Source: an uncultured bacterium (lineage in GTDB: Bacteria; Acidobacteriota; Vicinamibacteria; Vicinamibacterales; UBA8438). Taken from it: 64,000 bases of DNA. Each line of letters starts with the position of its first letter. The first letter of the stretch is position 1. This document shows positions 36,327 through 53,464 of the stretch, piece by piece. A model generated the notes under the pieces. The model worked only from the letters and a program-made list of their open reading frames with translations. It made no database searches and had not been told where the DNA came from. Both the position numbers and the translations under genes were made by a program. Location: NCBI GenBank assembly GCA_963934795.1, contig CAWWAF010000003.1:2029-66028 (forward strand), given 5' to 3'.

Positions 36327-36505
36327 GACTTCCCGGACGTCGCGGGACCTGCCTCGCGGCGCCGCCGGCCGGGGCAAGGATCTGCTGGCCCTGCCCTGAG
36401 GACCGTTCTACAATGGGACCACTAACAACGGGGATGCGCGTCCTCCCGGAAGACCGGCCACCACACGAATTGGTTGAGCGTCACTACGCGTTTATGGAGT
36501 CTGCA

Positions 36506-37339
36506 ATGAAGGCATCGGTCGGTGTTCTTGCCCTGAGTCTCATGTTGGCCGCCCACTCGGCGTCGGCCCAAGAGATCCCGAGGCTCTCTGATGGCCGTCC
36601 AGACATGAATGGCATCTGGCAGGTGTTGAACGAGGCGAACTACGACCTCGAACCGCACGTTGCCCGCCACTCAATGCAGATGCGTGAGGGGCCGGTGAAC
36701 CCCGTGCCCGCCGTGCCGACCTTGCGGCTCGGTGCCGTGGGTGCAGTGCCCGGGAGCCTGGGGGTCATTGTTGGCGGCGGGAAGATCCCGTACACGGAGG
36801 ACGCCCGCACGCTGAAAGAGGAGAACGCCGCAAACTGGATTGACAGGGACCCTGAGGTCAAGTGCTATATGCCCGGCGTGCCGCGGGCGACCTACATTCC
36901 GATGCCGTTCCAGGTCATCCAGAGCGAAAAGGACGTGTTCATCGCGTACCAGTTTGCGGGCGCCGTGCGGGACATCTATATGGACAACCCCGGCCCGTCC
37001 CAGGTCGACTCGTGGATGGGGTGGTCGGTGGGAACCTGGGAAGGGGACACGCTGGTCGTGGATGTGACCGGCCTTGCTGACGGGACGTGGCTTGATCGGG
37101 CTGGCAGCCATCATAGCTACCAGATGCACGTGGTGGAGCGCTACACGATGATGGGGCCGAATCACATCGACTACGAAGCGACCATCGAAGACCCGCAGGT
37201 GCTGACGGAACCGTTCACGATCAAGATGCCCTTGTATCGCCGGATGGAAGAGAACGCCCGAATCATGGACTTCCGCTGCGTGGAGTTTGTCGAAGAGCTA
37301 CTGTTTGGCGAGTGGCGCCGCACCCCGCTACCTCGGTAA
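36506..37339 (+). CDS. secreted protein, divergent member of the 'EYACHEGN' paralogue family (P1)
   Basis: Signal peptide MKASVGVLALSLMLAAHSASAQ. Shared blocks SDGRPDMNGIW, W.G.S.G.WEGDTLVVDVT and V.ERYT......I.YE.TIEDP. The C-terminal motif is degenerate (FRCVEF). Confidence 0.55.
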   Translation: MKASVGVLALSLMLAAHSASAQEIPRLSDGRPDMNGIWQVLNEANYDLEPHVARHSMQMREGPVNPVPAVPTLRLGAVGAVPGSLGVIVGGGKIPYTEDARTLKEENAANWIDRDPEVKCYMPGVPRATYIPMPFQVIQSEKDVFIAYQFAGAVRDIYMDNPGPSQVDSWMGWSVGTWEGDTLVVDVTGLADGTWLDRAGSHHSYQMHVVERYTMMGPNHIDYEATIEDPQVLTEPFTIKMPLYRRMEENARIMDFRCVEFVEELLFGEWRRTPLPR

Positions 37340-37411
37340 CGCGCAGACGGATGTGCGGCGACGCAAGTTCGGTGCGGGAACGTCCGACGACGGAAACCGA
37401 AGGAGATTGAG

Positions 37412-38548
37412 ATGCGCAATCGACTCGCGTTGTGTGGCGGCGGACTCACCGCGATCTGCCTGGCACTGGCACCGATGGCCGCCGGGCAAAGCGGCGACAT
37501 CCCGCGGACAGCGAGCGGGCGTCCCGACCTGTCTGGTACCTATGACGTGTCGACGTTGACGCCGCTGCAACGCCCGACCGATCTGGCGGACAAGCAATTC
37601 CTGACAAACGAAGAAGCGGCCGAGATTGCCGCACAGGAGCTGCAGCGGAACATCGACCGCCAGCGTGACAGCGCCCCCGATCGTGGTGCACCGCCGCAGG
37701 GCGGGGACGGATCGACCGGTGCCGCCGGCAATGTTGGCGGCTATAACAGCTTCTGGATCGATCGGGGAACCGAGGCGTTCCAGATCGATGGTCAATGGCG
37801 GACCTCAATCTTGATCGACCCACCGAACGGCCGAATGCCGGAACCGAGTGCAGAGCGAAGCGCCGCCCAAGCCGCCGCACGCGCGGCCCGTCGCGCGGCC
37901 GTCGGAGGGGGCGAGGCCCCGGTGTCTCGGCGGTTTCAGAACGACGGCACCGCCTATTGGCTCGAGGCGGGCCTGGACGGGCGTGGGCCATACGACAACA
38001 TGGAACAGCGGCCCTTCGCCGAGCGGTGCATCTTGTCGTTCAGTTCAACGGCTGGGCCGCCGATGATGCCGGCGCTCTACAACAACCACAAGCGAATCGT
38101 GCAGACCGAGGACACAGTGGTGATTCTCGTCGAAATGGTGCATGACGCGCGTGTGGTCAGGATGAATGCCGAGCACGATCCACCCGAGATCCAGAAATGG
38201 CTTGGTGATTCGATCGGGTGGTGGGAGGACGACACCCTGGTGGTTGAGACCACGAACTTCCGTGACACCCCGGCGTTTTCGCAGGGGTCGAAGGACATGA
38301 AGGTCACCGAGCGCTTTCGGATGGAGGGCGCGGACCAACTGGTGTATACGTTCACTGTCGAGGACCCGTCGGTCTGGAGCGCGCCCTTCACCGGCGAGTA
38401 TGCCTGGCCTCGCAGTGAGAACAAGGTGTTCGAGTACGCCTGTCACGAAGCGAATTACGCGCTGGAGGGCATCATGAAAGGCGCGCGGTTGCTTGAGGCC
38501 GACTTTCGGGGAGAAAGCCCGGAAGGGGTGGCCAACCCCACTCGATAG
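37412..38548 (+). CDS. secreted protein, 'EYACHEGN' paralogue family (P2)
   Basis: Strong RBS (AAGGAG) and a signal peptide. Blocks SGRPDLSGTY, TPLQRP, ERC, YNN, W.GDSIGWWEDDTLVVETTNF and FEYACHEANYALEGIMKGAR. Confidence 0.6.
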   Translation: MRNRLALCGGGLTAICLALAPMAAGQSGDIPRTASGRPDLSGTYDVSTLTPLQRPTDLADKQFLTNEEAAEIAAQELQRNIDRQRDSAPDRGAPPQGGDGSTGAAGNVGGYNSFWIDRGTEAFQIDGQWRTSILIDPPNGRMPEPSAERSAAQAAARAARRAAVGGGEAPVSRRFQNDGTAYWLEAGLDGRGPYDNMEQRPFAERCILSFSSTAGPPMMPALYNNHKRIVQTEDTVVILVEMVHDARVVRMNAEHDPPEIQKWLGDSIGWWEDDTLVVETTNFRDTPAFSQGSKDMKVTERFRMEGADQLVYTFTVEDPSVWSAPFTGEYAWPRSENKVFEYACHEANYALEGIMKGARLLEADFRGESPEGVANPTR

Positions 38549-38600
38549 CGTGAGACGCTGAGCCGGGTTCCGTTTGTTAACTTTTTTGGGAGAAGTCACG

Positions 38601-39053
38601 ATGCGACAGCAGACCTCGATGATGCTCAGGACCGGTGTGGCGGCACTCGCCCTTGCGGGTCTCGTAGTGGTGGCTGGTGTGCCGACTGCGGCGCACCACG
38701 CGTTCGGCGCCGAGTTCGATCCGAATCGTCCGGTTGTGCTCCGCGGGCCGGTGATCAAGGTCGAATGGGTGAATCCGCATACCTGGATTCACGTGGAAGT
38801 GACGGGCGATGACGGGACCAAGCAGGTGTGGATGGTCGAGGGCGGCACGCCGAACACGCTGCTGCGCCGCGGCCTGTCTCGCGATTCGATACCGATTGGC
38901 GCGATGCTCGTCGTCGATGGCTACCAGAGTAAGGACCGGAGCGCTCGAGCCAATGGGCGCGACGTGACATTTGAGGACGGTTCGAAGTTCTTCATGGGGT
39001 CGTCTGGAACCGGCGCGCCGCTTGACGGACGCGACGCGACCGAGCCCGAGTAG
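38601..39053 (+). CDS. small secreted protein, DUF6152-like
   Basis: A signal peptide ending ...AAHHAFGAEFD is followed by VIKVEWVNPHTWIHVEV. From memory this pattern matches DUF6152. Confidence 0.5.
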   Translation: MRQQTSMMLRTGVAALALAGLVVVAGVPTAAHHAFGAEFDPNRPVVLRGPVIKVEWVNPHTWIHVEVTGDDGTKQVWMVEGGTPNTLLRRGLSRDSIPIGAMLVVDGYQSKDRSARANGRDVTFEDGSKFFMGSSGTGAPLDGRDATEPE

Positions 39054-39102
39054 ACGCGGCCGGTCCACTCCCGCGGGGAGCGGCTGGTGCGCACGTTGAG
39101 AA

Positions 39103-39140
39103 GGCGCCTGGGGACTGCTGTCCCTGGGCGCATTTTTTTT
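39103..39140 (+). terminator. Rho-independent terminator
   Basis: GGCGCCTGGGGAC-TGCT-GTCCCTGGGCGC hairpin followed by a run of eight T, 50 nt after the stop at 39053. Confidence 0.65.
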
Positions 39141-39323
39141 GTCTTCAGGAGAGACGTCGGTGGCCCACAGGCGGAGCGCCGCGGTCGCTCTCCAAGAGAC
39201 GATCGGGGCCGTCAAGGTGACCGGGACGGTGCTGGTGTTGACCGCACCGGCCATGGCCCGGGTCGACACTTTCTGCACTGCGCGAGAGTACACACGTGCA
39301 GGCACGGGGGCACTGGGCCGCGG

Positions 39324-40115
39324 TCAGTCTCCGTCGACCGGGTGGGCGAGATCTGGTATCGGCGTCGCCGCGACCGTGGTGCGCTCGAGGAGCCAGACCA
39401 CGTTGACCGCGACCGGCGCGCCACGGGCTCTGGCCGGTTCGAAGCGGACGTCGGAGGCAAGCCGTGAGACCGCTCGTGTCAGCGCGGCATCTGGCACGCC
39501 GTCGTGTATCACGTGGACCGAGGCCAGCTGGCCCTCCCGGGTCACCACGGCCGTCAAGGCCAGGTTGGGGATGCCCAGCGGGCGGAGCGGCTGAATCAGC
39601 ATCGCCTTGGCTCGGGTGTCCGCCGCGACCCGCGGCAGCGTGACTCCGGCCACCAGCCAGAGTGGATTGGCATTCGAGCCGAGGGCCGTGGAGGTGCGCA
39701 TCAGCCCAGCCAGCGAACCGGGGTGTGTCGGCACGGCAAGACCCGCGAAGGCTGCCACTATCAGGGCGCCGGCGAGGGTGGCTGCCAGCGTGCCCCCGAT
39801 CATCCAGAGACGCTGCCGGTCATCGATCATGTCTTGAACCCGGTGGCGCCAACGGGTATCGGGTTGCATCGCCTTCCGGGCCATGACCTCTGGCGCCAAG
39901 CGTGCGAAGGCGGCTTCGTCAGGTCGGTGCTCTGCGGCGCCCTGGCGGAGTGCGGTGCCCAGCGACGTGAGGTCGTCGCGTACCCCGCGGCAGCGGGCGC
40001 AGCTCGTCAAATGGGCGTCCAGCAGCACGTGACGCCGGACCGACAGCTCGCCGTCATGAGCCGCCGTCAGCCAGGTGCGAACGGTGCGGCATCCCGGTGA
40101 GGTCAGCGGCGTCAT
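39324..40115 (-). CDS. anti-sigma factor (zf-HC2) with C-terminal TonB-C-like domain
   Basis: N-terminal CRTVRTWLTAAHDGEL...HLTSCARC (HC2 zinc finger), a central TM helix, and a C-terminal VVTREGQLASVHVIHDGVPDAALTRAVSRLASDVRFEPARARGAPV. Its ATG overlaps the sigma-factor stop (ATGA). Confidence 0.75.
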   Translation of the reverse strand: MTPLTSPGCRTVRTWLTAAHDGELSVRRHVLLDAHLTSCARCRGVRDDLTSLGTALRQGAAEHRPDEAAFARLAPEVMARKAMQPDTRWRHRVQDMIDDRQRLWMIGGTLAATLAGALIVAAFAGLAVPTHPGSLAGLMRTSTALGSNANPLWLVAGVTLPRVAADTRAKAMLIQPLRPLGIPNLALTAVVTREGQLASVHVIHDGVPDAALTRAVSRLASDVRFEPARARGAPVAVNVVWLLERTTVAATPIPDLAHPVDGD

Positions 40116-40711
40116 TGTGGTTGCAACTCCGTTCGCAACGTGTGGCGCGCGCGCGCCAGACGTAATTTGACCGCGGCGTTGGAGACGCCGAGGGAAAACG
40201 CAATCTCCGCGTAGCGCATACCATGCAGTTCACGCAGGACGACGGCTGAGCGCTGGTCGAATGGCAGCCGGTTGAGTGCCCGCCACACGCGCTCTCCCAA
40301 CTGTTTCTGGTCGAGTGCACGGTCCGGAGAAGTTGGTCCGAGTGGCGCCGGCAACTCTCCCCATTCTTCGATGAGGGCATCGAGCGATACCTGGTCGGCT
40401 CGACACCGTCGTCTCCACCAGCGCTGGCGGTTCCGCGCGTGGTTGATGACGATCCGGTAAATTCAGGTTTGTAGCGCCGAGTCACCCCGGAACCGGTGGA
40501 TGGATCGAAAGACGGTCAGGAAGACATCTTGCGAGAGGTCCAGGGCGTCGTCGTGATTGCTCAATAGCTGGAGCGCCAGGTGGTAGACCATCCGCTGGTG
40601 CGTGTCGACCACGTCTTGACACGATTGCGCGTCGCCGGACGCGCACCGTTCCGCGATGTCGCTTTCGGAGTCCGCGGTCTCAGACCAATCGATCGCGCGA
40701 GCTGGTTTCAC
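40112..40711 (-). pseudogene. ECF-type RNA polymerase sigma-70 factor with in-frame TGA at 40463..40465
   Basis: ORFs 40463..40711 (region 2: ...DLSQDVFLTVFRSIHRFRGDSALQT) and 40112..40354 (region 4: ...FDQRSAVVLRELHGMRYAEIAFSLGVSNAAVKLRLARAR) are in one frame. Read-through gives ALQT-*-IYRIVINHARN, where ECF sigmas have the conserved TW(L/I)YRI. Confidence 0.7.
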
Positions 40712-40917
40712 ACCTGCCTCCTGTCGGCCGTCACGTCGAGTATCCCTCGAAATGTCCCAGGTCCCTGTCTTCAGTTGGACACCGCATCCGGCAAAAAGTA
40801 GCGGCGGCGAGATTGAACCGACCTCGTCAGGGTTGTAGGATCAGCTGATCCATGCAGGCACCGAGCGGCAGCAAGGCGTGATGATCGCGCAATCAGGCCG
40901 TAATCAGGGAGATAGCG

Positions 40918-41913
40918 ATGCGTCGTCAAGTGTGTAGGACGGTTGGTCTCGTCGGGCTGGGCGTCATGCTGGTCGCCGGCCACAGCGCCGCGCAGTCGGG
41001 GGCGGCTGCGCACCGGACGCCGCACGGCGACCCCGATATTCAGGGGATCTTTACGTTTCGGACCATTACTCCCCTCGAACGTCCGGAGAACCTCGGTGAC
41101 AAGGCGACGCTATCGGCTGAGGAGGCCGCCGCATTCGAGGCGGCGGAACGGACGCGGTTGAATCGCGATCTGTTTGACCCCGAGTCCGGTGCCCCAAGCG
41201 CGGGGTATCAATCCCGCGCGGAGGGCGGCGTGCTGTCGTATAACGAGTTCTGGTACGAGCGCGGCATCGAACTGACCAGTGACAAACGAACGTCATTGAT
41301 TACCGATCCCCCGAACGGCCGGTTGCCCTGGACAGACCAGGCTCGTGCCGCGAACGGCGTCAACCGCCTGAATCTGAGGAACGGTTTTGCTGATACGTAC
41401 ACGGACCGCAGTCTGTCGGACCGGTGCCTCATGGGGTTCAATTCAGGCCCCCCGATGAGTGCCGGCGCCTACAACAACAACGTCCTGATTCTGCAGACCC
41501 CGACGCAGGTCGTCCTCGTCAACGAGATGGTGCACAACACGCGCATCATCCCGCTTGATGGCAGCGATCACGGCACGGTGCGTCGCTGGGCAGGTGACTC
41601 GCGTGGACGCTGGGACGGGGAGACGCTCGTCGTGGAGACGAGGAACTTCCTTCGGGACACGGCGGCACGCGGGTCGTCGCGGGACTCGCATCTCGTAGAG
41701 CGCTTTCGCCGGGTCGACGACGACACCGTCCTGTATGAGTTCACGTTCAAAGATCCGAATTCCTTCACCGAGCCCTGGACGGCAGCCATGCCGCTGCGAC
41801 GGACGGATGGACCACTCTTCGAGTATGCCTGCCACGAAGGCAACATCGGCATGCACGGCATCATGGCCGGCGCCCGGAAACTCGATACGCAAGCAGTCGA
41901 GGGCGGGCGCTAG
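40918..41913 (+). CDS. secreted protein, 'EYACHEGN' paralogue family (P3)
   Basis: RBS GGGAGA and a signal peptide. Blocks HGDPDIQGIF, TPLERP, DRC, YNNN, WAGDSRGRWDGETLVVETRNF and FEYACHEGNIGMHGIMAGAR. Confidence 0.6.
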   Translation: MRRQVCRTVGLVGLGVMLVAGHSAAQSGAAAHRTPHGDPDIQGIFTFRTITPLERPENLGDKATLSAEEAAAFEAAERTRLNRDLFDPESGAPSAGYQSRAEGGVLSYNEFWYERGIELTSDKRTSLITDPPNGRLPWTDQARAANGVNRLNLRNGFADTYTDRSLSDRCLMGFNSGPPMSAGAYNNNVLILQTPTQVVLVNEMVHNTRIIPLDGSDHGTVRRWAGDSRGRWDGETLVVETRNFLRDTAARGSSRDSHLVERFRRVDDDTVLYEFTFKDPNSFTEPWTAAMPLRRTDGPLFEYACHEGNIGMHGIMAGARKLDTQAVEGGR

Positions 41914-41922
41914 CCACTTCCC

Positions 41923-43077
41923 ATGTCGGCGTTCACGGATTTTCTTGGCACGCGTGCGCAAGAATTGTTGGGAACGGATCTCGCCCAGGTCCGGTTCACC
42001 GACATCGGCATGACGTATCTGCTGTCGATGGCGGTGGCGCTCGTCGTGCTGCTGTCCGTGCTACGCCTGTGGCTGACATCGCGGCGGCACCACCGGCAGC
42101 ACTCGGGCTACGAGATCGAGCCTCGGTTTCGACGGGGCGTGTGGAGCCAGGCGCTCTACAACGTACCGAAGCTGCTTCTCGGGCTCGCTCTCGCCGCGAT
42201 GCTGGTGGCCATGTCAGACCCCTACCTGACGGCGACCGAAGAGGTCGCTGGCGACATGGACTCGCGCATCCGTATCGACTTGGTCGATACCTCGCTGTCT
42301 ATGGCGTGGGAGTTCCCCGGCAGCGGGAAGTCGCGCGCCCAGGTGGCTCGCGAGGCGCACCTCGAATTTTTGGAAATGCGGCGCGACAAGAACGATCGGG
42401 TGGCCCTGTGGCTGTTCTCGTCGTTCCCGTACATGGTCGATGACTTTGTCATCGACGACGAGCTGTACTTCTTTCAGGTCCTGGACGCCCCCTACGCCAT
42501 CGTCCGTATCCTGGCCGCGCAATCAGGGACCCCAATCGACCAGATGTTCGTGCCGCGAGACAAGGTGCGCATCATTGACAGCGAAGGCAACACCAATATC
42601 ATCCGGGCGTTGCAATCGGTGTTGCGGCACTTTGACCGCGATGTCGCCACCCTGGGGAGTGGCAGCACGCCGCATCGCGCTGTGCTCATCGTGACCGACG
42701 CGGATGTCGACGAGATTCCGGAACAGGAGTTCGCCGAACTCAGCCGTCGGAACATTGTGCCGTACATGATTTTCATCAACGCCGACGAGCCGAGGCCGGG
42801 AATCCAGCGGCAGGCCAGTCCGCCCGTGGGGAATACCCAGGGGTTAATCGACACGATCCGCGAGTTTGGCGGCGACTACTTTGACGTGACCGATTCCGAC
42901 GGGTTGCAACGTGCCTACGAGGCGATCGATGAGGCGGAAACGGTGCAGGTCCAACTTTCACACCGGGCCGTCAAGGTGCCTATTTACCCGCGATTCCTGC
43001 TGATCAGCATGGCCCTGCTCGTGGTCGGGATTCCCGCAGGGTTCGTCGCCGAACTCATCGGCGGAACACAGCCCTAG
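41923..43077 (+). CDS. membrane-anchored VWA domain protein (BatA-like)
   Basis: N- and C-terminal TM helices. MIDAS motif DLVDTSLSM. 384 aa. Confidence 0.7.
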   Translation: MSAFTDFLGTRAQELLGTDLAQVRFTDIGMTYLLSMAVALVVLLSVLRLWLTSRRHHRQHSGYEIEPRFRRGVWSQALYNVPKLLLGLALAAMLVAMSDPYLTATEEVAGDMDSRIRIDLVDTSLSMAWEFPGSGKSRAQVAREAHLEFLEMRRDKNDRVALWLFSSFPYMVDDFVIDDELYFFQVLDAPYAIVRILAAQSGTPIDQMFVPRDKVRIIDSEGNTNIIRALQSVLRHFDRDVATLGSGSTPHRAVLIVTDADVDEIPEQEFAELSRRNIVPYMIFINADEPRPGIQRQASPPVGNTQGLIDTIREFGGDYFDVTDSDGLQRAYEAIDEAETVQVQLSHRAVKVPIYPRFLLISMALLVVGIPAGFVAELIGGTQP

Positions 43078-43980: not shown

Positions 43981-45390
43981 TTAGTAGTCGTTCTGGTCCA
44001 TCGACACCCGGATGATTTCCTCGTCGTTCCGCAATACCAGGTGGCGGTTGGCGAACGCCGGGTGCGACCAGACCACGAGGCGGTCGCTCTGGCCATGGGT
44101 GGCGCGACCGCGCGAGCCGGCCCTGGCCCCGCCGTACCCGGACCGCGAGGTGGGATTCATCAGGTGGGTTCGGTCCAGCTCGACATATCCCTCCGTGTTG
44201 AACTGCGCGATGATCAGATCGCCGTTCTCGTTGTAGACGAAATAGCGGTCTTCGTGCTGGATGAAATACGCTGACCCCCACCGATTTCTCGTGGTCAGTC
44301 CTTCCGCTTCCCACAGCCGTTCGCCGGTCTCGGCCAGCAGGCCGCGCACCTGTCCATGGCTGCCGATGCCATAGATGTAGTCGCCGACGATGAGCGGCGT
44401 CGTCATCACCGAGTGAAGCCCCGTGCTTTCAGCCACCTCGACGTCACCCACCGAGACCCGGTTGTTCTCGCCGCGCCAGATGGCGGTCGCGTCCGGTCGG
44501 TCCTGGTCGAGCCGCATCATCAGCGACCCGCTGTAGAACCCGGATACAAATAGATAGGGTCCGCTGTGGACCGCGTCGGCCACCGTCATGTTGGCTCGGC
44601 CCCGGAACTCTTCTTCCCAGTACAACTCACCGGTTTCGGGGTCGAGCGAGGAGAGTCCTCGCGGGTGCCAGACGATCAGCTGTTTGGCCCCGCCAGCCTC
44701 AATGATGCTGGGCTGGTGATACCCCATCTCCGTGCGGCTCTCGATGGCCCGCCACACCTCGTCACCGGTGTGCTTGTCGAAGGCCATCACCAGCGCGTCC
44801 GGTTCGCCGCCTACCAGCAGGATGACGCGGTCGCCGTCGATTAACGGGGCACTCGACGTTCCCCAGACCGGAATGTTGGTGTCGTACTCGGCGACCGTAT
44901 CTTTCTCCCAGATCACCGCACCGGTTTCGACATTCAGGCACAGCACGAGCCCAGTCGACCCCACGACATACACGCGGTCTCCGTCCACCGTGGGACTGGC
45001 GCGGGGGCCGGTCGCGTATGTGAACATCAGCATCCGGTAGGTGGTGGGCCACTCGTGGCTCCACAGCACCTCTCCCGTCTCTTCGTCGAGCGCGAGGACA
45101 CGTTCGGTCCCGTCCATCGTTCGCGGTTCGGTCTCCACATAGTCGAGCACGAACACGCGGCCATCGGCGACGGAGGGCCCTGAATAGCCGCCGTTCACCG
45201 GGACGCGCCACTTCACGGTCAAGCCTTCGTCTGGAAACTCCTCGAGGATCCCGGTCTCGGTCCACAGTCCCAGACGCTCGGTGCCGCGCCATTGAGGCCA
45301 GTCCTTTGCGGACAGCGTGGGGACGGCTGCGGTCGCCGCGGTGAAGAGGCCGACGAGCGCGATGAGCGCGATGCGATGTGCTGGCTGCAT
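43981..45390 (-). CDS. PQQ-like beta-propeller repeat protein (BamB-like fold, secreted)
   Basis: Signal peptide followed by KDWPQWRGTERLG. Repeated blades of the pattern ...DG.V(Y/F)V.... 469 aa. Confidence 0.75.
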   Translation of the reverse strand: MQPAHRIALIALVGLFTAATAAVPTLSAKDWPQWRGTERLGLWTETGILEEFPDEGLTVKWRVPVNGGYSGPSVADGRVFVLDYVETEPRTMDGTERVLALDEETGEVLWSHEWPTTYRMLMFTYATGPRASPTVDGDRVYVVGSTGLVLCLNVETGAVIWEKDTVAEYDTNIPVWGTSSAPLIDGDRVILLVGGEPDALVMAFDKHTGDEVWRAIESRTEMGYHQPSIIEAGGAKQLIVWHPRGLSSLDPETGELYWEEEFRGRANMTVADAVHSGPYLFVSGFYSGSLMMRLDQDRPDATAIWRGENNRVSVGDVEVAESTGLHSVMTTPLIVGDYIYGIGSHGQVRGLLAETGERLWEAEGLTTRNRWGSAYFIQHEDRYFVYNENGDLIIAQFNTEGYVELDRTHLMNPTSRSGYGGARAGSRGRATHGQSDRLVVWSHPAFANRHLVLRNDEEIIRVSMDQNDY

Positions 45391-46202: not shown

Positions 46203-47195
46203 TCAGCGTGTGACCTGGACGGTCACGTTTTCGTAGCTGAAATGCGCGCCGTCGCTCGCGACGGCCCGGAGCGTGTAGTCCCCGGGCTCGAGGAAGGTCA
46301 CCGTGTTCTCCCACCGGTTTCCGGCGGGTGGTTCCGGGAGAATATACGGCGGTGACCACGGGGAGTTTCCCCACACACGCGTATCCATCCAGGCCTTCAT
46401 CTGAACAGGCTCGAACGCCGCGTGGTCGGCCGGCCCGCGAAAGACAATCCACGACAGACGCAGACCCGGGGCGCTGCTGACGACAGACGATCCGACACCG
46501 GCTGTGGTGTAGAACTCGTCCAGGTCCTTCGGGGGCTGTCCACGGTCCGAGCGCTCAGGAAAGTTGTCCGGATCGTTCGCCATGGCGAACAGCGCCAGCG
46601 GTTCGCCGACCTTGGCGCTACGCTGCATCCCGCCCTCCACCGTCAGGTCTGGAGGCAGGTTCGTGCGGAGACGGTCGTCAAGGCTGCCGAAAGCACCACC
46701 CACCTCGGTCGACAGCACCTGGGGGTCCATCCGGTAGTCCGGACTGAGCGTGGCAAATGCCCGGTTCGTTCGCCCATGGCTGGTCAAGGTCCACACCACT
46801 TCCCGCTCTCCGAAGTCCGCCGGTACCTGGACGGTGAAGAGGAACGGGTTGCGTCGTGGATAAAAGTGCGTCGGTTGGCCGCGGTCGGCCGCTGCCGCGT
46901 CAAAGGCCGCGGTCGTGAGGTCGTCCAGCGCATTCGGTTCGGCGATGGAGAAGTAGTTCTTGGGCCCGATCGGGAAGTCGAACTCCTCCTCCCAGTTCGA
47001 ATTCATATAACCGAACCACAGCGTAAATGACCCGTCGTTGTTGGGCCACCAGCCCTCGAACGAGGGGTGGATACTCTGGCCCCGCAGGAACATGAACCGC
47101 GTCTGGGCATCTGCGCCACGCGCCGCGAACGGCGCCGTGACGATGAGAGAGAGCAGTAGCAACCCGAGCGCCGCCCGCGACACAGGCTGACTCAT
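46203..47195 (-). CDS. secreted hypothetical protein with C-terminal Ig/PKD-like domain, partner of the haem-c/Cu-monooxygenase-like gene (copy 1)
   Basis: The ATG at 47195 overlaps the upstream TGA (TGATG). Signal peptide present. Paralogue of 62811..63758, with shared blocks FGYMN.NWEE, GQPT.F.PRRN.F.F.V.VP, VWTLT, L.V.GGM.R...VGEPL and GL(R)(L/V)SW(I/F). C-terminal GDYTLRAVASDGAHFSYENVTVQV. Confidence 0.55.
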   Translation of the reverse strand: MSQPVSRAALGLLLLSLIVTAPFAARGADAQTRFMFLRGQSIHPSFEGWWPNNDGSFTLWFGYMNSNWEEEFDFPIGPKNYFSIAEPNALDDLTTAAFDAAAADRGQPTHFYPRRNPFLFTVQVPADFGEREVVWTLTSHGRTNRAFATLSPDYRMDPQVLSTEVGGAFGSLDDRLRTNLPPDLTVEGGMQRSAKVGEPLALFAMANDPDNFPERSDRGQPPKDLDEFYTTAGVGSSVVSSAPGLRLSWIVFRGPADHAAFEPVQMKAWMDTRVWGNSPWSPPYILPEPPAGNRWENTVTFLEPGDYTLRAVASDGAHFSYENVTVQVTR

Positions 47196-48682
47196 CACTG
47201 CTGTCCGCTTTCCTCTGTGGCGGTCTCCATCGGCGGCACCGGAGCCCAACACAACGGGCAGCCGACGTCATATTCGTTCCGGTCCTTCATGGCGGCGCGT
47301 CGGTCGGCCATCTCGCCCTGGAATTGTTCCTCTGTGAGCTCGACGGCATAGCCGAGGTCAATGAACATATTGGCGACAGATCGCCGGCCACCGCCGGCCC
47401 AGTTCCTGCTGTCCGCGAGGTTCTTGTTGCCCGGGGTCGTGTCCAGGAAGCCAACGATGTGCAGGATGGTGCCTTTCGGCAGCAGCGGCGCCGCATCGTC
47501 CTCGTAGACGTACTGCTTGACCCAACTGTGGTCGTAGCCGACGCAATTGAGTGTGAAGTGGTTCTTGCCCCAGATCGCTTCGATACACATGCGCGTGCCG
47601 GGTGCGTGCAGATGGGGTTCGAAGGCGACGAGCTTGGTGTGCTGATTCAGCACCGTGAACGCGTGCATCTCCTGGCCGGAACGACCGGGCGCGACGTCGA
47701 TGTCGTTGCCGTTACCCAACCCCACCCGAGCGCGGTCGCCGTACTCCGGTGCGTAGCCCTTGTCGTGGAAGATGAAGCCAAATTCAAGATGTGCGGTCGT
47801 TTCCGCGATGCCGTTCGAGTGGAGGTGGCTGGCACCCAGGTGCAATGCGGAGCCCGCCTGCAGCAGCGTGCCAAATTTCTCCGGGAAGATGTCGGCGTTG
47901 CGTCCCACTTCGTGGATCGGCCAGCGCACGCGGGTGTCCTCGTCTATATCGGTGCCGTCCTCGTTCAGGACTCCGCTGGAATAGGTCATATGGTGGAAGA
48001 TGTACCGTCCACCGACGGTATTGTCTCCGGCCCCCGGAGGGATATCGTTGATCTCCCTCACCTCTACCGCTTTCACATACCGGTCTTCCGTGAGGCCCGT
48101 CGGCACCAAGCCGATGTCACCCCAGCGGTCCGGCCCAACGGCGGGGCGCGTCATATCTTTCGAACGTAACACGAGGTCCGGTTCCCCGATGGTCCACTCT
48201 CCGGCGCCGGCAAATTCGAGCGGCGGGGGCATGTCGTTGGCATCCCCGCGGGGCGCGCCGTGGTCCGCCCACGCCTGAATCAGCGCGAGCTCCTCGTCGC
48301 TCAGGGAGGGGTCGTTCTTGAATTTGAGGATGCCGAGATCCTTCTCAAGGAAGAACGGTGGCATCGCGCCCTGCCGGTCTCTGATGGAGGTTCTGGTCTT
48401 GATCGAACGAGCCCAGGGCCTCACCTGATCGTAGGTGAGGAGGGACATGGGTGCGCCGCCGTCGGGCCGATGACAGCCCTGACAGCTTCGCTGCAAGATG
48501 GGTGCGATGTGCTTGGTGAACGTGACATCCTCGGCGTCGATGCCGAAATCGGCCACGTCATATAAGTGGACATTGGGATGGGGGTCGCTACCGGCGAGCG
48601 ATTGCGCCGCCGCGGCGGCGGGTGCCAAGGTCACCAACGGAACGATCAGGGCCGCCGCGTACGCGAACAGTTTGGTGCGCAT
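47195..48682 (-). CDS. secreted fusion: c-type cytochrome (CxxCH, PSCyt1-like) N-domain plus PHM/DBH-like copper monooxygenase core (copy 1)
   Basis: Signal peptide. HIAPILQRSCQGCHRPDGGAPMSL. His/Met ligand-like motifs occur in PHM order and spacing: YIFHHMTY, then about 56 aa later ASHLHSNG, then about 70 aa later FEPHLHAPGTRMC, then about 80 aa later VANMFIDLGY. Confidence 0.5.
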   Translation of the reverse strand: MRTKLFAYAAALIVPLVTLAPAAAAAQSLAGSDPHPNVHLYDVADFGIDAEDVTFTKHIAPILQRSCQGCHRPDGGAPMSLLTYDQVRPWARSIKTRTSIRDRQGAMPPFFLEKDLGILKFKNDPSLSDEELALIQAWADHGAPRGDANDMPPPLEFAGAGEWTIGEPDLVLRSKDMTRPAVGPDRWGDIGLVPTGLTEDRYVKAVEVREINDIPPGAGDNTVGGRYIFHHMTYSSGVLNEDGTDIDEDTRVRWPIHEVGRNADIFPEKFGTLLQAGSALHLGASHLHSNGIAETTAHLEFGFIFHDKGYAPEYGDRARVGLGNGNDIDVAPGRSGQEMHAFTVLNQHTKLVAFEPHLHAPGTRMCIEAIWGKNHFTLNCVGYDHSWVKQYVYEDDAAPLLPKGTILHIVGFLDTTPGNKNLADSRNWAGGGRRSVANMFIDLGYAVELTEEQFQGEMADRRAAMKDRNEYDVGCPLCWAPVPPMETATEESGQQ

Positions 48683-48896
48683 TTCACACTCCCTATACAC
48701 AACGTCCCGACGCCAACCCATGGTGGGTTGAGGCTGTCGGTCACCTAGCTTGCAGAAACGCTCCATTATGACCTGGACCGCACCGTCAGCTCAATCACCA
48801 AACCGACTCGGCTAGATGGTCTTTTGCCCCGTCGAGCGTCGGAGACGGTGACCCAGGGCGCGACAACGCCCGCCCTGGGTCAGCCCGATCCGAGTG

Positions 48897-51380: not shown

Positions 51381-52301
51381 TTACCTCGGTTCACCGGGCC
51401 GAGTGCCATCCCGTTCCTGAACGCGAGCGCCGCGTAACAGGTTCTCCATGCCGTAGTTCCCCTCGTGGCAGGCATATTCGTAGATCGGACCGTCGAACCG
51501 CGCCAGCGGAATCGACGCGGTCCAGGGGCCGGCGTAGGTGGTGGGGTCTTCGACGGTGTAGCGATGGTCGAGGGTGTTGGCGTCCACACGGGTGAAACGT
51601 TCGACCAGACGCAGGTTCGCGCCGGCCCCGGGGCAGCAGTTGTACGAGTTGAAGACGATCTGCTCGGCGAAGTTGGTTGTCTCGACCACCAGCGTGTCGC
51701 CATCCCATCGTCCCCGGGAATCGCCCATCCAGAGCCCGATGTCGCCATCGATGTGCGGCCGGTCGTCGAGTGGAATGATCCGGACCTCGTGAATCATCTC
51801 CTGCAGAATCGTTACGTAGCCGGGCGTCTGCAGAATCAAGAAATTGTTGTTGTACCCGCCGGGGCGCTTCGGTGCCCCTCGCGTCACGCAGCGCTCCGCC
51901 AGGTTCCGGTTGGTCCAGGAGTCGGCCCCACGCGCCCATTCGGCTCGAGCTTGTCCGTCCGCCGTGAATGCGGGTATTCGGCCGTCGGACGGGTCGATCA
52001 CCAGCGAGGTCTGCGTCAGGCGGGTGCCCCGCTCCCACCAAAATTCGTTGTAGGTACCGGGGTCCCCGGCCCGTGGCGGACGATCGTTGCGTCCGACCGC
52101 TTGGGCATCGAGCGTGGCCATTTCCTCATCGGTGAGTACGGTGCGGTTCGCCATGTCTGGCGGTCGTTCGAGCGGAGTCGTGGTCGAATTGGTCCACAGC
52201 CCGTGCAGATTACGCTGGCCGTCCGGCGTCAGCGGAGTTTGGGCGGCGACCCGGACGAACACACACAGGACGATGGCGACCAGCCAATAGCAGTTTTTCA
52301 T
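51381..52301 (-). CDS. secreted protein, 'EYACHEGN' paralogue family (P4)
   Basis: The internal ATG 52301 gives the signal peptide MKNCYWLVAIVLCVFVRVAAQ. Blocks TTPLERP, ERC, YNNNFLILQTPGYV, WMGDSRGRWDGDTLVVETTNF and YEYACHEGNYGMENLLRGAR. Confidence 0.6.
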   Translation of the reverse strand: MKNCYWLVAIVLCVFVRVAAQTPLTPDGQRNLHGLWTNSTTTPLERPPDMANRTVLTDEEMATLDAQAVGRNDRPPRAGDPGTYNEFWWERGTRLTQTSLVIDPSDGRIPAFTADGQARAEWARGADSWTNRNLAERCVTRGAPKRPGGYNNNFLILQTPGYVTILQEMIHEVRIIPLDDRPHIDGDIGLWMGDSRGRWDGDTLVVETTNFAEQIVFNSYNCCPGAGANLRLVERFTRVDANTLDHRYTVEDPTTYAGPWTASIPLARFDGPIYEYACHEGNYGMENLLRGARVQERDGTRPGEPR

Positions 52302-52309
52302 GGCACCCC

Positions 52310-53464
52310 TCAGGAAGAACGCGGCGATTGTCTCACCGCGACGTCGTCCGGCACGGATGCACTGGAATCTGGGGAACGGCGTGGGGGCTCCAGAGGCGAT
52401 GCCGGTTCGGTATGTCCGTCGGTTCCAGACAGGAAGCGGCGGATGTGTGGCGCCGCGAGCAGGCGACGGCCTTGCTCCCGACCCCGTTCGAATGTGCGCA
52501 TGATGACCACGGGATCGAAACACAGGAAGCCTGCCTCGACCACGTGGTCGGGATGGATGACCAGAAGTGTGCCGTCGGCGAGGGCGCGCGCGACGGACGG
52601 GTGGTCGTTCAACGCCCGCAGTCGCAGGCTCGTCTCCCAGAGGCGACCGTTTGGATCGCAACAGAAGACCACGGTGCGGGGCGTCGCCGTCCAGCGGGCT
52701 AGGCCCCGGAAACGGGCGTCGTCCTCGAAGATCGCCATGGGCATCTTCAGAGCGAACCCTCCGTCAACGAATATCGCCTGCCTATCGTTCGGGAACAAGC
52801 CGCCGGGCGAAAGCAGCGTCGGTTGGATCGCAGGCCCCATGGCCAGCGGCACCAGGCACGAGGCCTCGATAGCGCAGTGGTAGTTAGCCCGTGTGAGCGG
52901 CCGAACACACTCAGATTGCAGCGCGTCCGGGAGGTTGGTGGCGAACACGACCGGGTCCACCTGGTAGCGAGGCCGGTACTTTAGCCGCCCAGGAAGTTTG
53001 CGGGTGGCCGCCATCGCGAACAACTTGGTCAAATCGGCACGCCCCGGCGTCCGTCCGTCCAGGCGCCGAATCCGCGACGTGAACACGAGCAAGGTCCGCT
53101 GCGCCGACTCGTCGAACACGTCATCCACTTCGGGAGGCTCCATCACGTAACGGATGGACGCGTGCAGGTGCTTCCGAAAGCGGCTACGTGGCCACTCGTT
53201 CGCAACGAAGTCGGCGAGAGGATACCGCTTCGGGATCTCCGGAGCCCCCCAGACCGTCCAGCCTTTCAGTACCGTCGCCTCGCTGCCGGTGGCCACATCG
53301 GCGGCGGCATAGCCACCCGCCGACGCGCCCATCGCTATCGTGGGATAGCCCCCGTTCGTGCGCGTCCATCGCATCACTTCGTAGAGGACGCCACCTTGCC
53401 AGGCGCCGCGCCCGGCGCCGCCCGAGTCGAGAATCCAGGTGCAGGAGAAGGGCCTTGTCACCAT
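52310..53464 (-). CDS. patatin-like phospholipase family protein
   Basis: DSGGAGRG (oxyanion GGxRG), GASAGG (GxSxG) and VDGGF (catalytic Asp). The start ATG at 53464 overlaps the DASS gene stop (ATGGTGA). Confidence 0.8.
   Translation of the reverse strand: MVTRPFSCTWILDSGGAGRGAWQGGVLYEVMRWTRTNGGYPTIAMGASAGGYAAADVATGSEATVLKGWTVWGAPEIPKRYPLADFVANEWPRSRFRKHLHASIRYVMEPPEVDDVFDESAQRTLLVFTSRIRRLDGRTPGRADLTKLFAMAATRKLPGRLKYRPRYQVDPVVFATNLPDALQSECVRPLTRANYHCAIEASCLVPLAMGPAIQPTLLSPGGLFPNDRQAIFVDGGFALKMPMAIFEDDARFRGLARWTATPRTVVFCCDPNGRLWETSLRLRALNDHPSVARALADGTLLVIHPDHVVEAGFLCFDPVVIMRTFERGREQGRRLLAAPHIRRFLSGTDGHTEPASPLEPPRRSPDSSASVPDDVAVRQSPRSS

What the first reader, a model, noticed from the sequence alone, without database searches (positions are those of the whole stretch)
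36506..41913. Four-member family of secreted proteins ending in EYACHEGN....GAR, with three copies clustered here and a fourth at 51381..52301
P2 (37412..38548), P3 (40918..41913) and P4 (51381..52301, minus strand) share an ordered set of blocks. These are G(R/D)PD(L/I).G after the signal peptide, TPL(E/Q)RP, (E/D)RC, YNN, an EM(V/I)H..R(I/V) segment, W.GDS.G.W(E/D)(G/D)(D/E)TLVVET.NF, ERF.R, ..(V/F)(E/K)DP, and a C-terminal (F/Y)EYACHE(G/A)N....(I/L)..GAR. P1 (36506..37339) is a shorter divergent member. I do not recognise the family as characterised. The invariant Cys-His-Glu near the C-terminus and the earlier conserved RC suggest a metal or redox site. Four paralogues within 16 kb is unusual.
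Basis: seen in the sequence. Interest (0 to 1): 0.65.

Follow-up and report, generated by a model that had tools for sequence, protein, structure and literature searches.

The report
Unannotated secreted beta-barrel protein family
The four genes are real, secreted paralogues of a very large bacterial protein family that no database has named; they are predicted to fold into a lipocalin/FABP-like barrel, and three neighbouring genes (two paralogues plus a small DUF6152 protein) lie on one RNA in seawater, but what the proteins do is still unknown.

Summary
Exactly four paralogues lie at the stated coordinates: P2, P3 and P4 are 35-43% identical, and P1 is 26-30% identical to them (E about 1e-17). 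None matches Pfam, NCBIfam or any PDB sequence, and every source calls them 'hypothetical protein'. The family is very large: 24,968 clusters at 50% identity, in Acidobacteriota and marine Gammaproteobacteria.

A confident AlphaFold model (pLDDT 87) shows an eight-stranded barrel of the calycin (FABP/lipocalin) type. An ordered N-terminal wrap of about 150 residues precedes it, and a C-terminal helix that starts at the C-H-E-G-N motif follows it.

There are two subtypes. P2, P3 and P4 are the 'CHE-type'. P1 is a shorter 'CVE-type' that lacks the histidines. In both phyla a CVE-type gene sits directly upstream of a CHE-type gene, often followed by DUF6152, which is predicted to be an OB-fold with a His-His N-terminus.

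In this window, metatranscriptome contigs cover P1-P2-DUF6152 as one unit (about 36431 to 39138, ending at a terminator-like hairpin). These genes are also the best-conserved in the syntenic block.

The ECF sigma link holds only in close relatives. Clustering of copies is normal for this family. The two invariant cysteines more likely form a disulfide than a metal site, but I could not test this. My best guess for function is periplasmic handling of a small molecule by a heteromeric complex.

The parts
36409..36414 (+). TACAAT, a candidate -10 box of the P1-P2-DUF6152 transcription unit
   Evidence: Read directly from the sequence. RNA contigs from three metatranscriptomes begin at 36431, 36432 and 36435. 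The consensus promoter scan reported no full sigma-70 match, so this is an inferred feature.
36506..37339 (+). P1: the CVE-type (short) family member, 277 aa, with a signal peptide ending ASA|QE. It lacks R55, H206, H306, N309 and R320 of the CHE-type, and in this lineage has Gln at position 203. It keeps both Cys, R209, E261 and D279.
   Evidence: Orthologues are 85-100% identical over more than 120 clusters at 90% identity. Covered by RNA contigs.
37412..38548 (+). P2: a CHE-type family member, 378 aa, with an extra insertion of about 50 residues before the ERC motif
   Evidence: RNA contigs span both the P1-P2 and the P2-DUF6152 junctions.
38601..39053 (+). DUF6152 (PF19649) partner gene, 150 aa. 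It has a signal peptide and a predicted mature N-terminus of His-His, and is predicted to be an OB-fold.
   Evidence: Pfam E 6.9e-30. Orthologues are 150-152 aa. Invariant H32, H33, D40, N58-P59-H60, W77, E80 and D112. AF2 model pLDDT 73, with the core at 80-92. Foldseek matches OB-fold domains.
39104..39141 (+). Hairpin that looks like an intrinsic terminator (12-bp stem, 9 G-C pairs, followed by ATTTTTTTTG), closing the P1-P2-DUF6152 unit
   Evidence: An RNA contig ends at 39138, and depth drops to about 0 after 39054-39314.
39324..40115 (-). Context: anti-sigma factor (zf-HC2 N-terminus, weak TonB_C-like C-terminus)
   Evidence: Conserved only in close relatives.
40112..40711 (-). Context: ECF sigma factor gene interrupted by an in-frame TGA at the conserved Trp of region 2 (TW[IL]YRI)
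40918..41913 (+). P3: a CHE-type family member, 331 aa. This is the protein that was modelled.
   Evidence: It is followed 9 nt later by a VWA-domain membrane protein gene at 41923-43077. That pairing is kept in L005 and L007.
51381..52301 (-). P4: a CHE-type family member, 306 aa. Its start lies 8 nt downstream of the stop of a patatin-like gene on the same strand.
   Evidence: Not covered by RNA contigs in the four runs examined.

Best explanation
P1-P4 are Sec-exported (periplasmic or secreted) members of a very large, unannotated protein family.

Fold. An eight-stranded up-and-down beta-barrel of the calycin (FABP/lipocalin/avidin) type is preceded by an ordered N-terminal wrap of about 150 residues. 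It is followed by a long C-terminal helix that begins at the C-H-E-G-N motif.

Cysteines. The two invariant cysteines are the 'RC' before strand 1 and the 'ACHE' after strand 8. They lie on the segments that flank the same end of the barrel. They most likely form a disulfide that staples the C-terminal helix to the pre-barrel loop.

Subtypes. The family has a full-length CHE-type (P2, P3, P4) and a shorter CVE-type (P1). The CVE-type has lost part of the wrap and the residues R55, S126, H206, H306, N309 and R320.

Proposed working unit. A CVE-type gene sits directly upstream of a CHE-type gene, often with the OB-fold DUF6152 gene next. I therefore propose that the unit encoded at 36506-39053 is a periplasmic heteromer of P1 and P2, with or without DUF6152. 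It would bind or process one common small polar or anionic ligand, possibly a carboxylate-bearing lipid-like product of the esterases and lipases often found nearby. The universally conserved R209, E261 and D279 would contribute to the ligand site.

Shown: homology, family size, predicted fold, gene order, RNA contigs covering the three genes as one unit, and strong conservation. Inferred: the disulfide, the heteromer, the ligand class and the location of the binding site.
For: Homology and family size.

Fold: AF2 model of P3 with pLDDT 87.4 and pTM 0.84, showing 8 strands (188-295) and a helix (307-329). Foldseek against PDB matches only calycin-type barrels. The top hit is iFABP 3akn (E 6.5e-4, TM 0.52 normalised to the target), then CRABP2, streptavidin, nitrophorins and lipocalins.

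Cysteines: both are present in 113 of 118 family genes, and the other 5 are unaligned at those columns. They persist even in the P1-type that has lost the His. Mature P1-P3 contain no Cys beyond the two conserved ones. P4 has one extra adjacent pair (CC) in an insertion.

Paired subtypes: a CVE-type gene directly followed by a CHE-type gene occurs in L005, L007, L032, L044, L054, L064 (a gammaproteobacterium), L065, L081 and L082. The two genes are usually close or overlapping.

DUF6152: found within +-8 kb in 16 of 86 loci. It is the most frequent operon-linked Pfam family, at 7 of 75 linked genes.

One transcription unit: RNA contigs cover 36431-39138 and span both gene junctions. A terminator-like hairpin lies at 39104-39131.

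Constraint: against two related genomes, P1, P2, DUF6152 and P3 are 77-87% identical, while most flanking genes are 52-70%.

Lipid/ester link (weak): about 8 of the 75 operon-linked genes are GDSL, esterase or alpha/beta-hydrolase genes. A patatin-like gene ends 8 nt upstream of P4. A GDSL gene lies two genes from P3. There is a fusion to the DUF3089 hydrolase domain. FABP-type proteins are the best fold hits.
Against: - No ligand, complex or disulfide has been observed.
- About 14 polar residues are invariant or nearly so across paralogues that share only 30-40% identity. That looks more like a catalytic or cofactor site than a simple carrier pocket.
- The genomic neighbourhood is otherwise heterogeneous: PQQ/cytochrome c dehydrogenases, NHL propellers, TonB-dependent receptors and amidohydrolases. 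The lipid link is therefore only a modest enrichment, with no proper background model.
- P3 and P4 are not paired with a CVE-type gene, so a heteromer cannot be obligatory for every member.
- The N-terminal wrap might fill the barrel and leave no pocket.
Confidence: 0.4

Rival explanations
1. Metal- or redox-dependent periplasmic enzyme. C305 sits at the N-terminal cap of the long C-terminal helix. Together with H306 or E307, H206, E203 and C170 it would form a metal site or a redox-active Cys pair. The CVE-type P1 would be a catalytically dead partner subunit. DUF6152, with its N-terminal His-His, would deliver or hold a metal such as copper.
For: - The polar residues E203, R209, E261, D279, E302, C305, H306, E307 and N309 are at least 95% conserved across 134 diverse members.
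- H206, H306 and N309 are lost together in the CVE-type, a pattern seen in pairs of an active and an inactive paralogue.
- C305 lies immediately before the helix at 307-329. Reactive cysteines often sit at that position (established knowledge of thioredoxin-fold and peroxiredoxin enzymes).
- The predicted mature N-terminus of DUF6152 is an invariant His-His, with an invariant NPH as well. This recalls histidine-brace copper sites (a resemblance from memory, not tested).
- PQQ/cytochrome c dehydrogenases lie within +-8 kb in 16 of 81 loci, and some are directly adjacent.
Against: - Three consecutive residues (C-H-E) cannot all point at one site.
- The residues lost in the P1-type include the whole TPLERP / RTSL..DPP.GR.P part of the N-terminal wrap. 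H306, N309 and R320 may therefore simply be contacts for that wrap.
- Both Cys are kept in the P1-type although the His is gone. That fits a structural disulfide.
- There is no CxxC, CxxCH or other known metal motif (read directly from the sequence).
- No fold match to any metalloenzyme.
- The DUF6152 model is only of moderate confidence, and its N-terminal tail is disordered in the model.
Confidence: 0.3
2. Envelope-stress or signalling output of the adjacent ECF sigma/anti-sigma pair. The paralogues would be regulon members whose job is tied to that regulator.
For: The sigma/anti-sigma genes lie between P2-DUF6152 and P3, and are divergently oriented to P3. The arrangement is conserved in L005 and L007.
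Against: - An ECF sigma lies near a family member in only 5 of 87 loci, all close relatives.
- The sigma gene here has an in-frame TGA in three assemblies. It shows no RNA coverage, while the P1-P2-DUF6152 unit is covered.
- The P1 upstream region has a TACAAT box rather than an obvious ECF-type promoter.
Confidence: 0.05
3. Non-catalytic structural or adhesive secreted proteins, for example cell-surface or matrix components. Their conserved residues would serve only folding, and multiple copies would provide surface variation.
For: Multi-copy, tandemly clustered, exported proteins. The N-terminal half is mostly ordered coil.
Against: Orthologues are unusually well conserved (P1 85-100%) rather than diversifying. 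The conserved positions are mainly charged or polar, not only glycine, proline or hydrophobic. The fixed gene order with DUF6152 across phyla points to a defined complex.
Confidence: 0.1

Closest known systems
Intracellular lipid-binding proteins (FABP, CRABP) and other calycins (lipocalins, avidins, nitrophorins)
   Same: Antiparallel up-and-down beta-barrel of similar size. These are the best, and essentially the only, Foldseek matches (iFABP 3akn E 6.5e-4; CRABP2, streptavidin, nitrophorins, lipocalins). Like lipocalins, the barrel has eight strands followed by a C-terminal helix.
   Different: - No sequence or profile relationship: no Pfam calycin-clan hit in 134 members, and hhalign against a Lipocalin_5 domain gave probability 0.4%.
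- TM-scores are only about 0.45-0.52 over about 115 residues.
- No helix-turn-helix lid between strands 1 and 2, as FABPs have.
- A family-specific, highly conserved N-terminal wrap of about 150 residues and the C-H-E-G-N helix cap have no counterpart.
- The proteins are exported, whereas FABPs are cytosolic.
Lipocalin-type prostaglandin D synthase and other calycin-fold enzymes (spirocyclases OssO/OlmO, the Oplophorus luciferase catalytic subunit / NanoLuc)
   Same: They show that calycin barrels can be enzymes, in one case using a single reactive Cys. OlmO, OssO, NanoLuc and L-PGDS appear among the weak Foldseek hits.
   Different: The matches are weak (E 0.02-0.1). No catalytic residues are shared, and no activity is known for the present family.
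DUF6152 (PF19649), the partner gene rather than the family itself
   Same: The gene at 38601-39053 is a clear member (E 6.9e-30). It recurs directly downstream of family genes in two phyla.
   Different: DUF6152 is itself uncharacterised, and full-text searches of the held paper library for 'DUF6152' and 'PF19649' returned no paper on it. It is a predicted OB-fold, unrelated in sequence and fold to P1-P4.

Membership tests
Calycin structural superfamily (lipocalin / FABP / avidin) | 8-10-stranded antiparallel up-and-down beta-barrel | tested here: met
   AF2 model of P3 (pLDDT 87.4) has 8 consecutive strands between 188 and 295. Foldseek top hits are iFABP, CRABP2, streptavidin, nitrophorins and lipocalins. 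This rests on a predicted structure, not an experimental one.
Calycin structural superfamily (lipocalin / FABP / avidin) | Detectable sequence/profile membership in a described calycin-clan family | tested here: not met
   No Pfam family at E<=1 for the four paralogues, nor recurrently among 134 members. No NCBIfam hit. hhalign against a Lipocalin_5 domain gave probability 0.4% (a weak test, because the template was a single sequence).
FABP/iLBP family | Helix-turn-helix lid between strands A and B; ten strands | tested here: not met
   DSSP on the model shows strands 188-193 and 197-202 joined by a 3-residue turn, and only eight strands.
Calycin structural superfamily (lipocalin / FABP / avidin) | Ligand held inside the barrel cavity | not testable with these tools
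   Model coordinates are not exposed, and no ligand data exist.
   Conservation: C170, C305 and E307 are universal. H306 is 96% conserved in the CHE-type but is Val in the CVE-type. H206 is 84% conserved. Geometry could not be examined.
c-type cytochrome / thiol-disulfide oxidoreductase | CxxCH or CxxC motif | tested here: not met
   The mature proteins have single, widely separated Cys (ERC ... YACHE); read directly.
DUF6152 (PF19649) | Match to the Pfam model above the gathering score | tested here: not met
   P1-P4 give no match. Only the neighbouring gene at 38574/38601-39053 matches (103.5 bits against a cut-off of 27).
Sec-exported proteins | N-terminal signal peptide with a signal peptidase I site and no lipobox | tested here: met
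   By inspection of the four N-termini: a basic n-region, a hydrophobic stretch of 12-16 residues, and ASA|QE, AAG|QS, SAA|QS and VAA|QT. No dedicated predictor was available.

The most novel reading that the evidence does not exclude
The CVE-type/CHE-type pair plus DUF6152 would be a previously unrecognised three-component periplasmic enzyme system. It would be widespread in Acidobacteriota and marine Gammaproteobacteria. A calycin-fold subunit would use the helix-cap Cys-His-Glu cluster catalytically, with or without a metal. The OB-fold DUF6152 would contribute an N-terminal histidine-brace-like metal site.
Probability: 0.15. Interest if true: 0.75.

Novelty: new variant of a known kind. 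Interest (0 to 1): 0.45.

Why it matters
This family has about 25,000 clusters at 50% identity and no entry in Pfam, NCBIfam or the PDB. It is among the best-conserved genes in its neighbourhood, and its RNA is found in ocean metatranscriptomes. It is therefore a sizeable piece of functional 'dark matter' in abundant soil and marine heterotrophs (Vicinamibacterales, Bryobacterales, Pseudohongiella, Porticoccaceae).

This work gives experimenters a concrete, small target by defining three things: the fold, the two subtypes, and the conserved gene order of CVE-type, CHE-type and DUF6152. It would also justify new family models and a first functional handle on DUF6152.

If the function turns out to be ordinary ligand carriage, the gain is mainly annotation. 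If it is a new calycin-fold enzyme, it would add a widespread periplasmic chemistry.

Tried and rejected
- Pfam on the four paralogues, on 134 diverse members and on fused members gave no family for the domain itself.
- NCBIfam gave nothing.
- A PDB sequence-profile search gave only one chance hit at E 0.55.
- hhalign against the Lipocalin_5 domain fused in P0360 showed no relation.
- Literature searches for DUF6152, PF19649 and the ACHEGN/YACHEG motifs found nothing relevant. The hits were an author's surname. A search on Vicinamibacterales metatranscriptomes found nothing useful.
- ECF-regulon idea: I looked by eye for a shared ECF-type promoter upstream of P1, P3 and P4 and found no convincing common motif. 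ECF sigma co-occurrence is restricted to close relatives. Rejected as a trait of the family.
- Neighbourhood clustering with greedy longest-ORF gene calls was contaminated by antisense ORFs in these high-GC genomes. I redid it with a GC3 filter.
- TonB-dependent receptor linkage: only 2 of the 10 large neighbouring genes I checked. Not pursued.
- PQQ-dehydrogenase linkage (16 of 81 loci): left as weak. These genomes probably carry many such genes (an assumption I did not test), and I had no background estimate.
The accepted alignment had little diversity (81-87% identity), which explains the moderate confidence.
- Lookup of a representative's contig (P0316) returned only a 1.5-kb contig.
- RNA coverage of P4 showed only 30-nt motif matches from other paralogues' transcripts.

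Full report

- P1, 36506-37339 (+), 277 aa
- P2, 37412-38548 (+), 378 aa
- P3, 40918-41913 (+), 331 aa
- P4, 51381-52301 (-), 306 aa

There are three small deviations. P4 reads GQRNLHG in the first block. P2 reads ERFRM. The spacer between N and (I/L)..GAR is five residues, not four.

Pairwise BLASTP gives P3-P4 43% (2e-79), P2-P3 37% (1e-62) and P2-P4 35% (8e-61). P1 against the others is 26-30% (1e-17 to 1e-18, 68-72 bits). The best of 200 shuffles reached 26.9 bits. A profile of the four, searched against the six-frame translation of the whole window, returns exactly these four ORFs.

Each protein begins with a typical Sec signal peptide ending A-x-(A/G)|Q, and none has a lipobox (read from the sequences).

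**2. How big and how annotated is the family?**

- Pfam gives nothing at E<=1 for any of the four, and nothing recurrent for 134 diverse members scanned one by one.
- NCBIfam gives nothing.
- A profile search of all PDB sequences gives one chance hit at E 0.55.
- Word-indexed searches with P3 and with P1 each saturate at 8,000 hits. Every source name is 'hypothetical protein', mostly from Acidobacteria/Vicinamibacterales MAGs.
- An exhaustive HMMER search of 1.84 billion representatives of 50%-identity clusters finds 24,968 proteins at E<=1e-3, 13,218 at 1e-10 and 2,331 at 1e-30.
- A motif-seeded scan of one genome per species finds at least 584 coding stretches. They lie in Vicinamibacterales, Bryobacterales and Terriglobia, and also in Gammaproteobacteria (Pseudohongiella, Porticoccaceae, Pseudomonadales).
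- Full-text searches for DUF6152, PF19649 and the motif strings find no paper.

The window itself matches Tara and other marine metagenome contigs.

**3. Conservation**

The alignment A2 holds 134 sequences: the four paralogues plus 130 cluster representatives. Six positions are invariant (P3 numbering): G134, P137, C170, G226, E261 and C305. At least 95% conserved are G37, P39, D40, G43, R55, S126, P131, R169, E203, R209, G230, W232, T236, L237, V238, T276, D279, E302, A304, H306, E307, N309, L316 and R320.

I also tabulated the functional-looking positions in 118 family genes, taken from the window and 81 genomic loci:
- C170 and C305 are both present in 113. The other five are unaligned at those columns.
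- R209, E261 and D279 are universal.
- R55, S126, H206, H306, N309 and R320 are confined to one subtype.

**4. Fold**

AlphaFold2 on A2 gives a confident model of P3: mean pLDDT 87.4, pTM 0.84, and 205 residues at pLDDT 90 or above.
- Residues 30-185 are mostly ordered coil with two helices (67-81 and 140-155).
- Residues 188-295 form eight consecutive beta-strands.
- Residues 307-329 form a long helix that starts right after C305.

Foldseek against the PDB finds no full-length match. It matches only the barrel, and only to calycin-type proteins. These are iFABP 3akn (E 6.5e-4, TM 0.52 normalised to the target), CRABP2, streptavidin, nitrophorins, lipocalins, NanoLuc, and the spirocyclases OlmO and OssO.

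In an eight-stranded up-and-down barrel, the start of strand 1 and the end of strand 8 lie at the same end, on adjacent strands. The loop carrying C170 (18 residues before strand 1) and the segment carrying C305 (10 residues after strand 8) can therefore be close in space. From this I infer a C170-C305 disulfide. I could not measure it, because the tools do not return model coordinates.

**5. Two subtypes and a conserved gene order**

P1 represents a distinct 'CVE-type' of about 270-290 aa with the C-terminal motif F(K/R)CVEF. It lacks the TPLERP ... RTSL.DPP.GR.P part of the wrap, and also H206, H306, N309 and R320. It has its own conserved blocks: PDLNGIWQ..N.ANWDL..H, LGA.GA.P.G.GV, DPE.KCY.PGVPRA.Y.P.PFQI and TWFD.AGN.HS.

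P1 orthologues are 85-100% identical across more than 120 clusters at 90% identity.

In the genomic loci, a CVE-type gene is directly followed on the same strand by a CHE-type gene in L005, L007, L032, L044, L054, L064, L065, L081 and L082. The two genes are mostly close together or overlapping. L064 is gammaproteobacterial; the rest include Vicinamibacterales and Bryobacterales.

A DUF6152 gene follows in many of these, and also follows lone CHE-type genes (L021, L062, L075, L052). DUF6152 is within +-8 kb in 16 of 86 loci. Among 75 operon-linked non-family genes it is the most frequent Pfam family, at 7. Next come NHL (4) and PQQ (3), then a scatter of esterase, GDSL, alpha/beta-hydrolase, metallo-beta-lactamase and amidohydrolase genes.

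Two or more family copies within +-8 kb occur in 39 of 86 loci, and one locus has six.

**6. The P1-P2-DUF6152 unit in this window**

Contigs from four seawater metatranscriptomes cover 36431-39138, including both intergenic junctions. Three runs have contig ends at 36431, 36432 and 36435, just downstream of a TACAAT box at 36409-14.

A hairpin with a 12-bp stem and nine G-C pairs, followed by a T-run, lies at 39104-39141. One RNA contig ends at 39138.

Coverage over the LysM gene upstream is low. Over the sigma gene it is zero, over the anti-sigma gene almost zero, and P3 is covered only partly. P4 is not covered at all, apart from 30-nt matches to the conserved motifs that come from other organisms' paralogues. 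Contig depth is a poor measure of expression, and DNA carry-over cannot be excluded.

Compared with two related genomes, P1, P2, DUF6152 and P3 are 77-87% identical. The flanking ECH, NUDIX, TauE, LysM and anti-sigma genes are 52-70% identical; the VWA and sigma genes lie in between, at 72-80%.

**7. DUF6152**

The gene at 38601-39053 matches PF19649 (E 6.9e-30). Its orthologues are 150-152 aa and 81-87% identical.

An alignment with diverse homologues puts the predicted signal-peptide cleavage just before an invariant His-His (A|HH[AS]F). Also invariant are D40, N58-P59-H60, W77, E80 and D112.

The AF2 model is of moderate quality (pLDDT 73, core 80-92) and is an OB-fold. Foldseek matches the LysRS anticodon-binding domain, PriB and SSB.

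An N-terminal His is the hallmark of histidine-brace copper sites. That is a resemblance from memory, not a test.

**8. Other context**

The ECF sigma/anti-sigma pair between DUF6152 and P3 is present only in close relatives: 5 of 87 loci. The sigma gene here carries TGA where relatives have TGG.

P3 is followed 9 nt later by a VWA-domain membrane protein gene; L005 and L007 keep this pairing.

P4 begins 8 nt after a patatin-like gene, which follows a DASS-family symporter gene. A GDSL lipase gene lies two genes beyond P3.

Rare fusions join the domain to a DUF3089 alpha/beta-hydrolase, to a squalene-hopene-cyclase-like repeat, and to a Lipocalin_5 domain. Some of these may be gene-call artefacts.

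PQQ/cytochrome c dehydrogenases are within +-8 kb in 16 of 81 loci. I had no background rate for them.

**9. Interpretation**

Well supported:
- a genuine, very large, unannotated family of exported proteins
- a predicted calycin-type barrel with a family-specific wrap and C-terminal helix
- two subtypes whose genes are paired across phyla
- DUF6152 as a recurrent third gene
- RNA contigs that cover the three-gene unit from end to end
- strong conservation relative to neighbouring genes

Inferred:
- a C170-C305 disulfide
- a P1-P2 (+- DUF6152) heteromer
- a common small polar or anionic ligand bound in or at the barrel

The modest excess of esterase and lipase neighbours, together with the FABP-like fold, suggests a carboxylate-bearing lipid-like ligand. 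I put this overall reading at 0.4.

The main rival, at 0.3, is that the conserved polar cluster is a catalytic or metal site, P1 is an inactive partner, and DUF6152 is a metal-binding accessory. Two things favour it: the number of invariant charged residues, and the position of C305 at a helix N-cap. Two things weaken it. Both Cys persist in the His-less subtype. And the 'lost' residues disappear together with a whole segment of the wrap, so they may simply be packing contacts.

The ECF-regulon and purely structural readings are unlikely.

**10. Novelty and score**

In fold terms this is a new variant of a known kind: a calycin-type barrel. In sequence terms it is an undescribed family. Nothing here contradicts established biology, and no mechanism has been demonstrated.

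The family's size, its conservation, the RNA evidence and the conserved three-gene module make it a good target for characterisation. Interest: 0.45.

Noticed in passing
window 40112-40711 (-), stop codon inside 40340-40480: The ECF sigma gene has an in-frame TGA exactly at the conserved Trp of region 2 (...GDSALQT*IYRIVINHARN). The same TGA is present in independent assemblies L001 and L002, while relatives L005, L006 and L007 have TGG. No RNA contigs cover the gene. It could be a population-level pseudogene or a read-through codon.
   Followed up: partly
window 46203-47252 (-) and 47195-48766 (-): Two adjacent genes have no confident Pfam match. One encodes a 330-349 aa exported protein. The other encodes a 495-523 aa protein with an N-terminal CxxCH (weak Cytochrome_CBB3 hit) and several HH / HxH motifs. 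Co-linear homologues lie next to a family member in the Pseudomonadales (gammaproteobacterial) locus L042 (4088-5479 and 5496-6443), so this is another conserved pair of unknown function.
   Followed up: partly
window 52313-~53400 (-): A patatin-like phospholipase gene (Pfam E 1.3e-6) is hidden inside a longer 834-aa ORF listing. Its stop lies 8 nt upstream of the P4 start on the same strand. A DASS-family Na+/sulfate-type symporter gene (53458-54870) lies just upstream of it.
   Followed up: partly
window 38601-39053 (+): DUF6152 has an invariant His-His at the predicted mature N-terminus, plus invariant NPH, D40, W77, E80 and D112, and is predicted to be an OB-fold. It is a candidate metal-binding (histidine-brace-like) periplasmic protein. 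No literature on it was found.
   Followed up: partly
window 36413 vs 36506: Public gene calls for P1 include a 308-aa version starting at ATG 36413 (P0121). That ATG overlaps the TACAAT box, and RNA contigs start at 36431-36435. Orthologues are 277-281 aa, so 36506 is the likely true start.
   Followed up: yes
window 37056->41816 and 37059->38429 (RNA contig joints, runs X3/X4): A few metatranscriptome contigs join P1 to P3 or to P2, with only 21-23 nt on one side. These are most likely assembler chimeras between paralogues rather than real RNA junctions.
   Followed up: no
window 43981-45390 (-); L005 12635-17239; L065 4576-7023; L052 5061-7118: PQQ-type beta-propeller proteins, several fused or adjacent to cytochrome c domains, recur near family members (16 of 81 loci within +-8 kb). 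Whether this exceeds the genomic background is unknown.
   Followed up: partly
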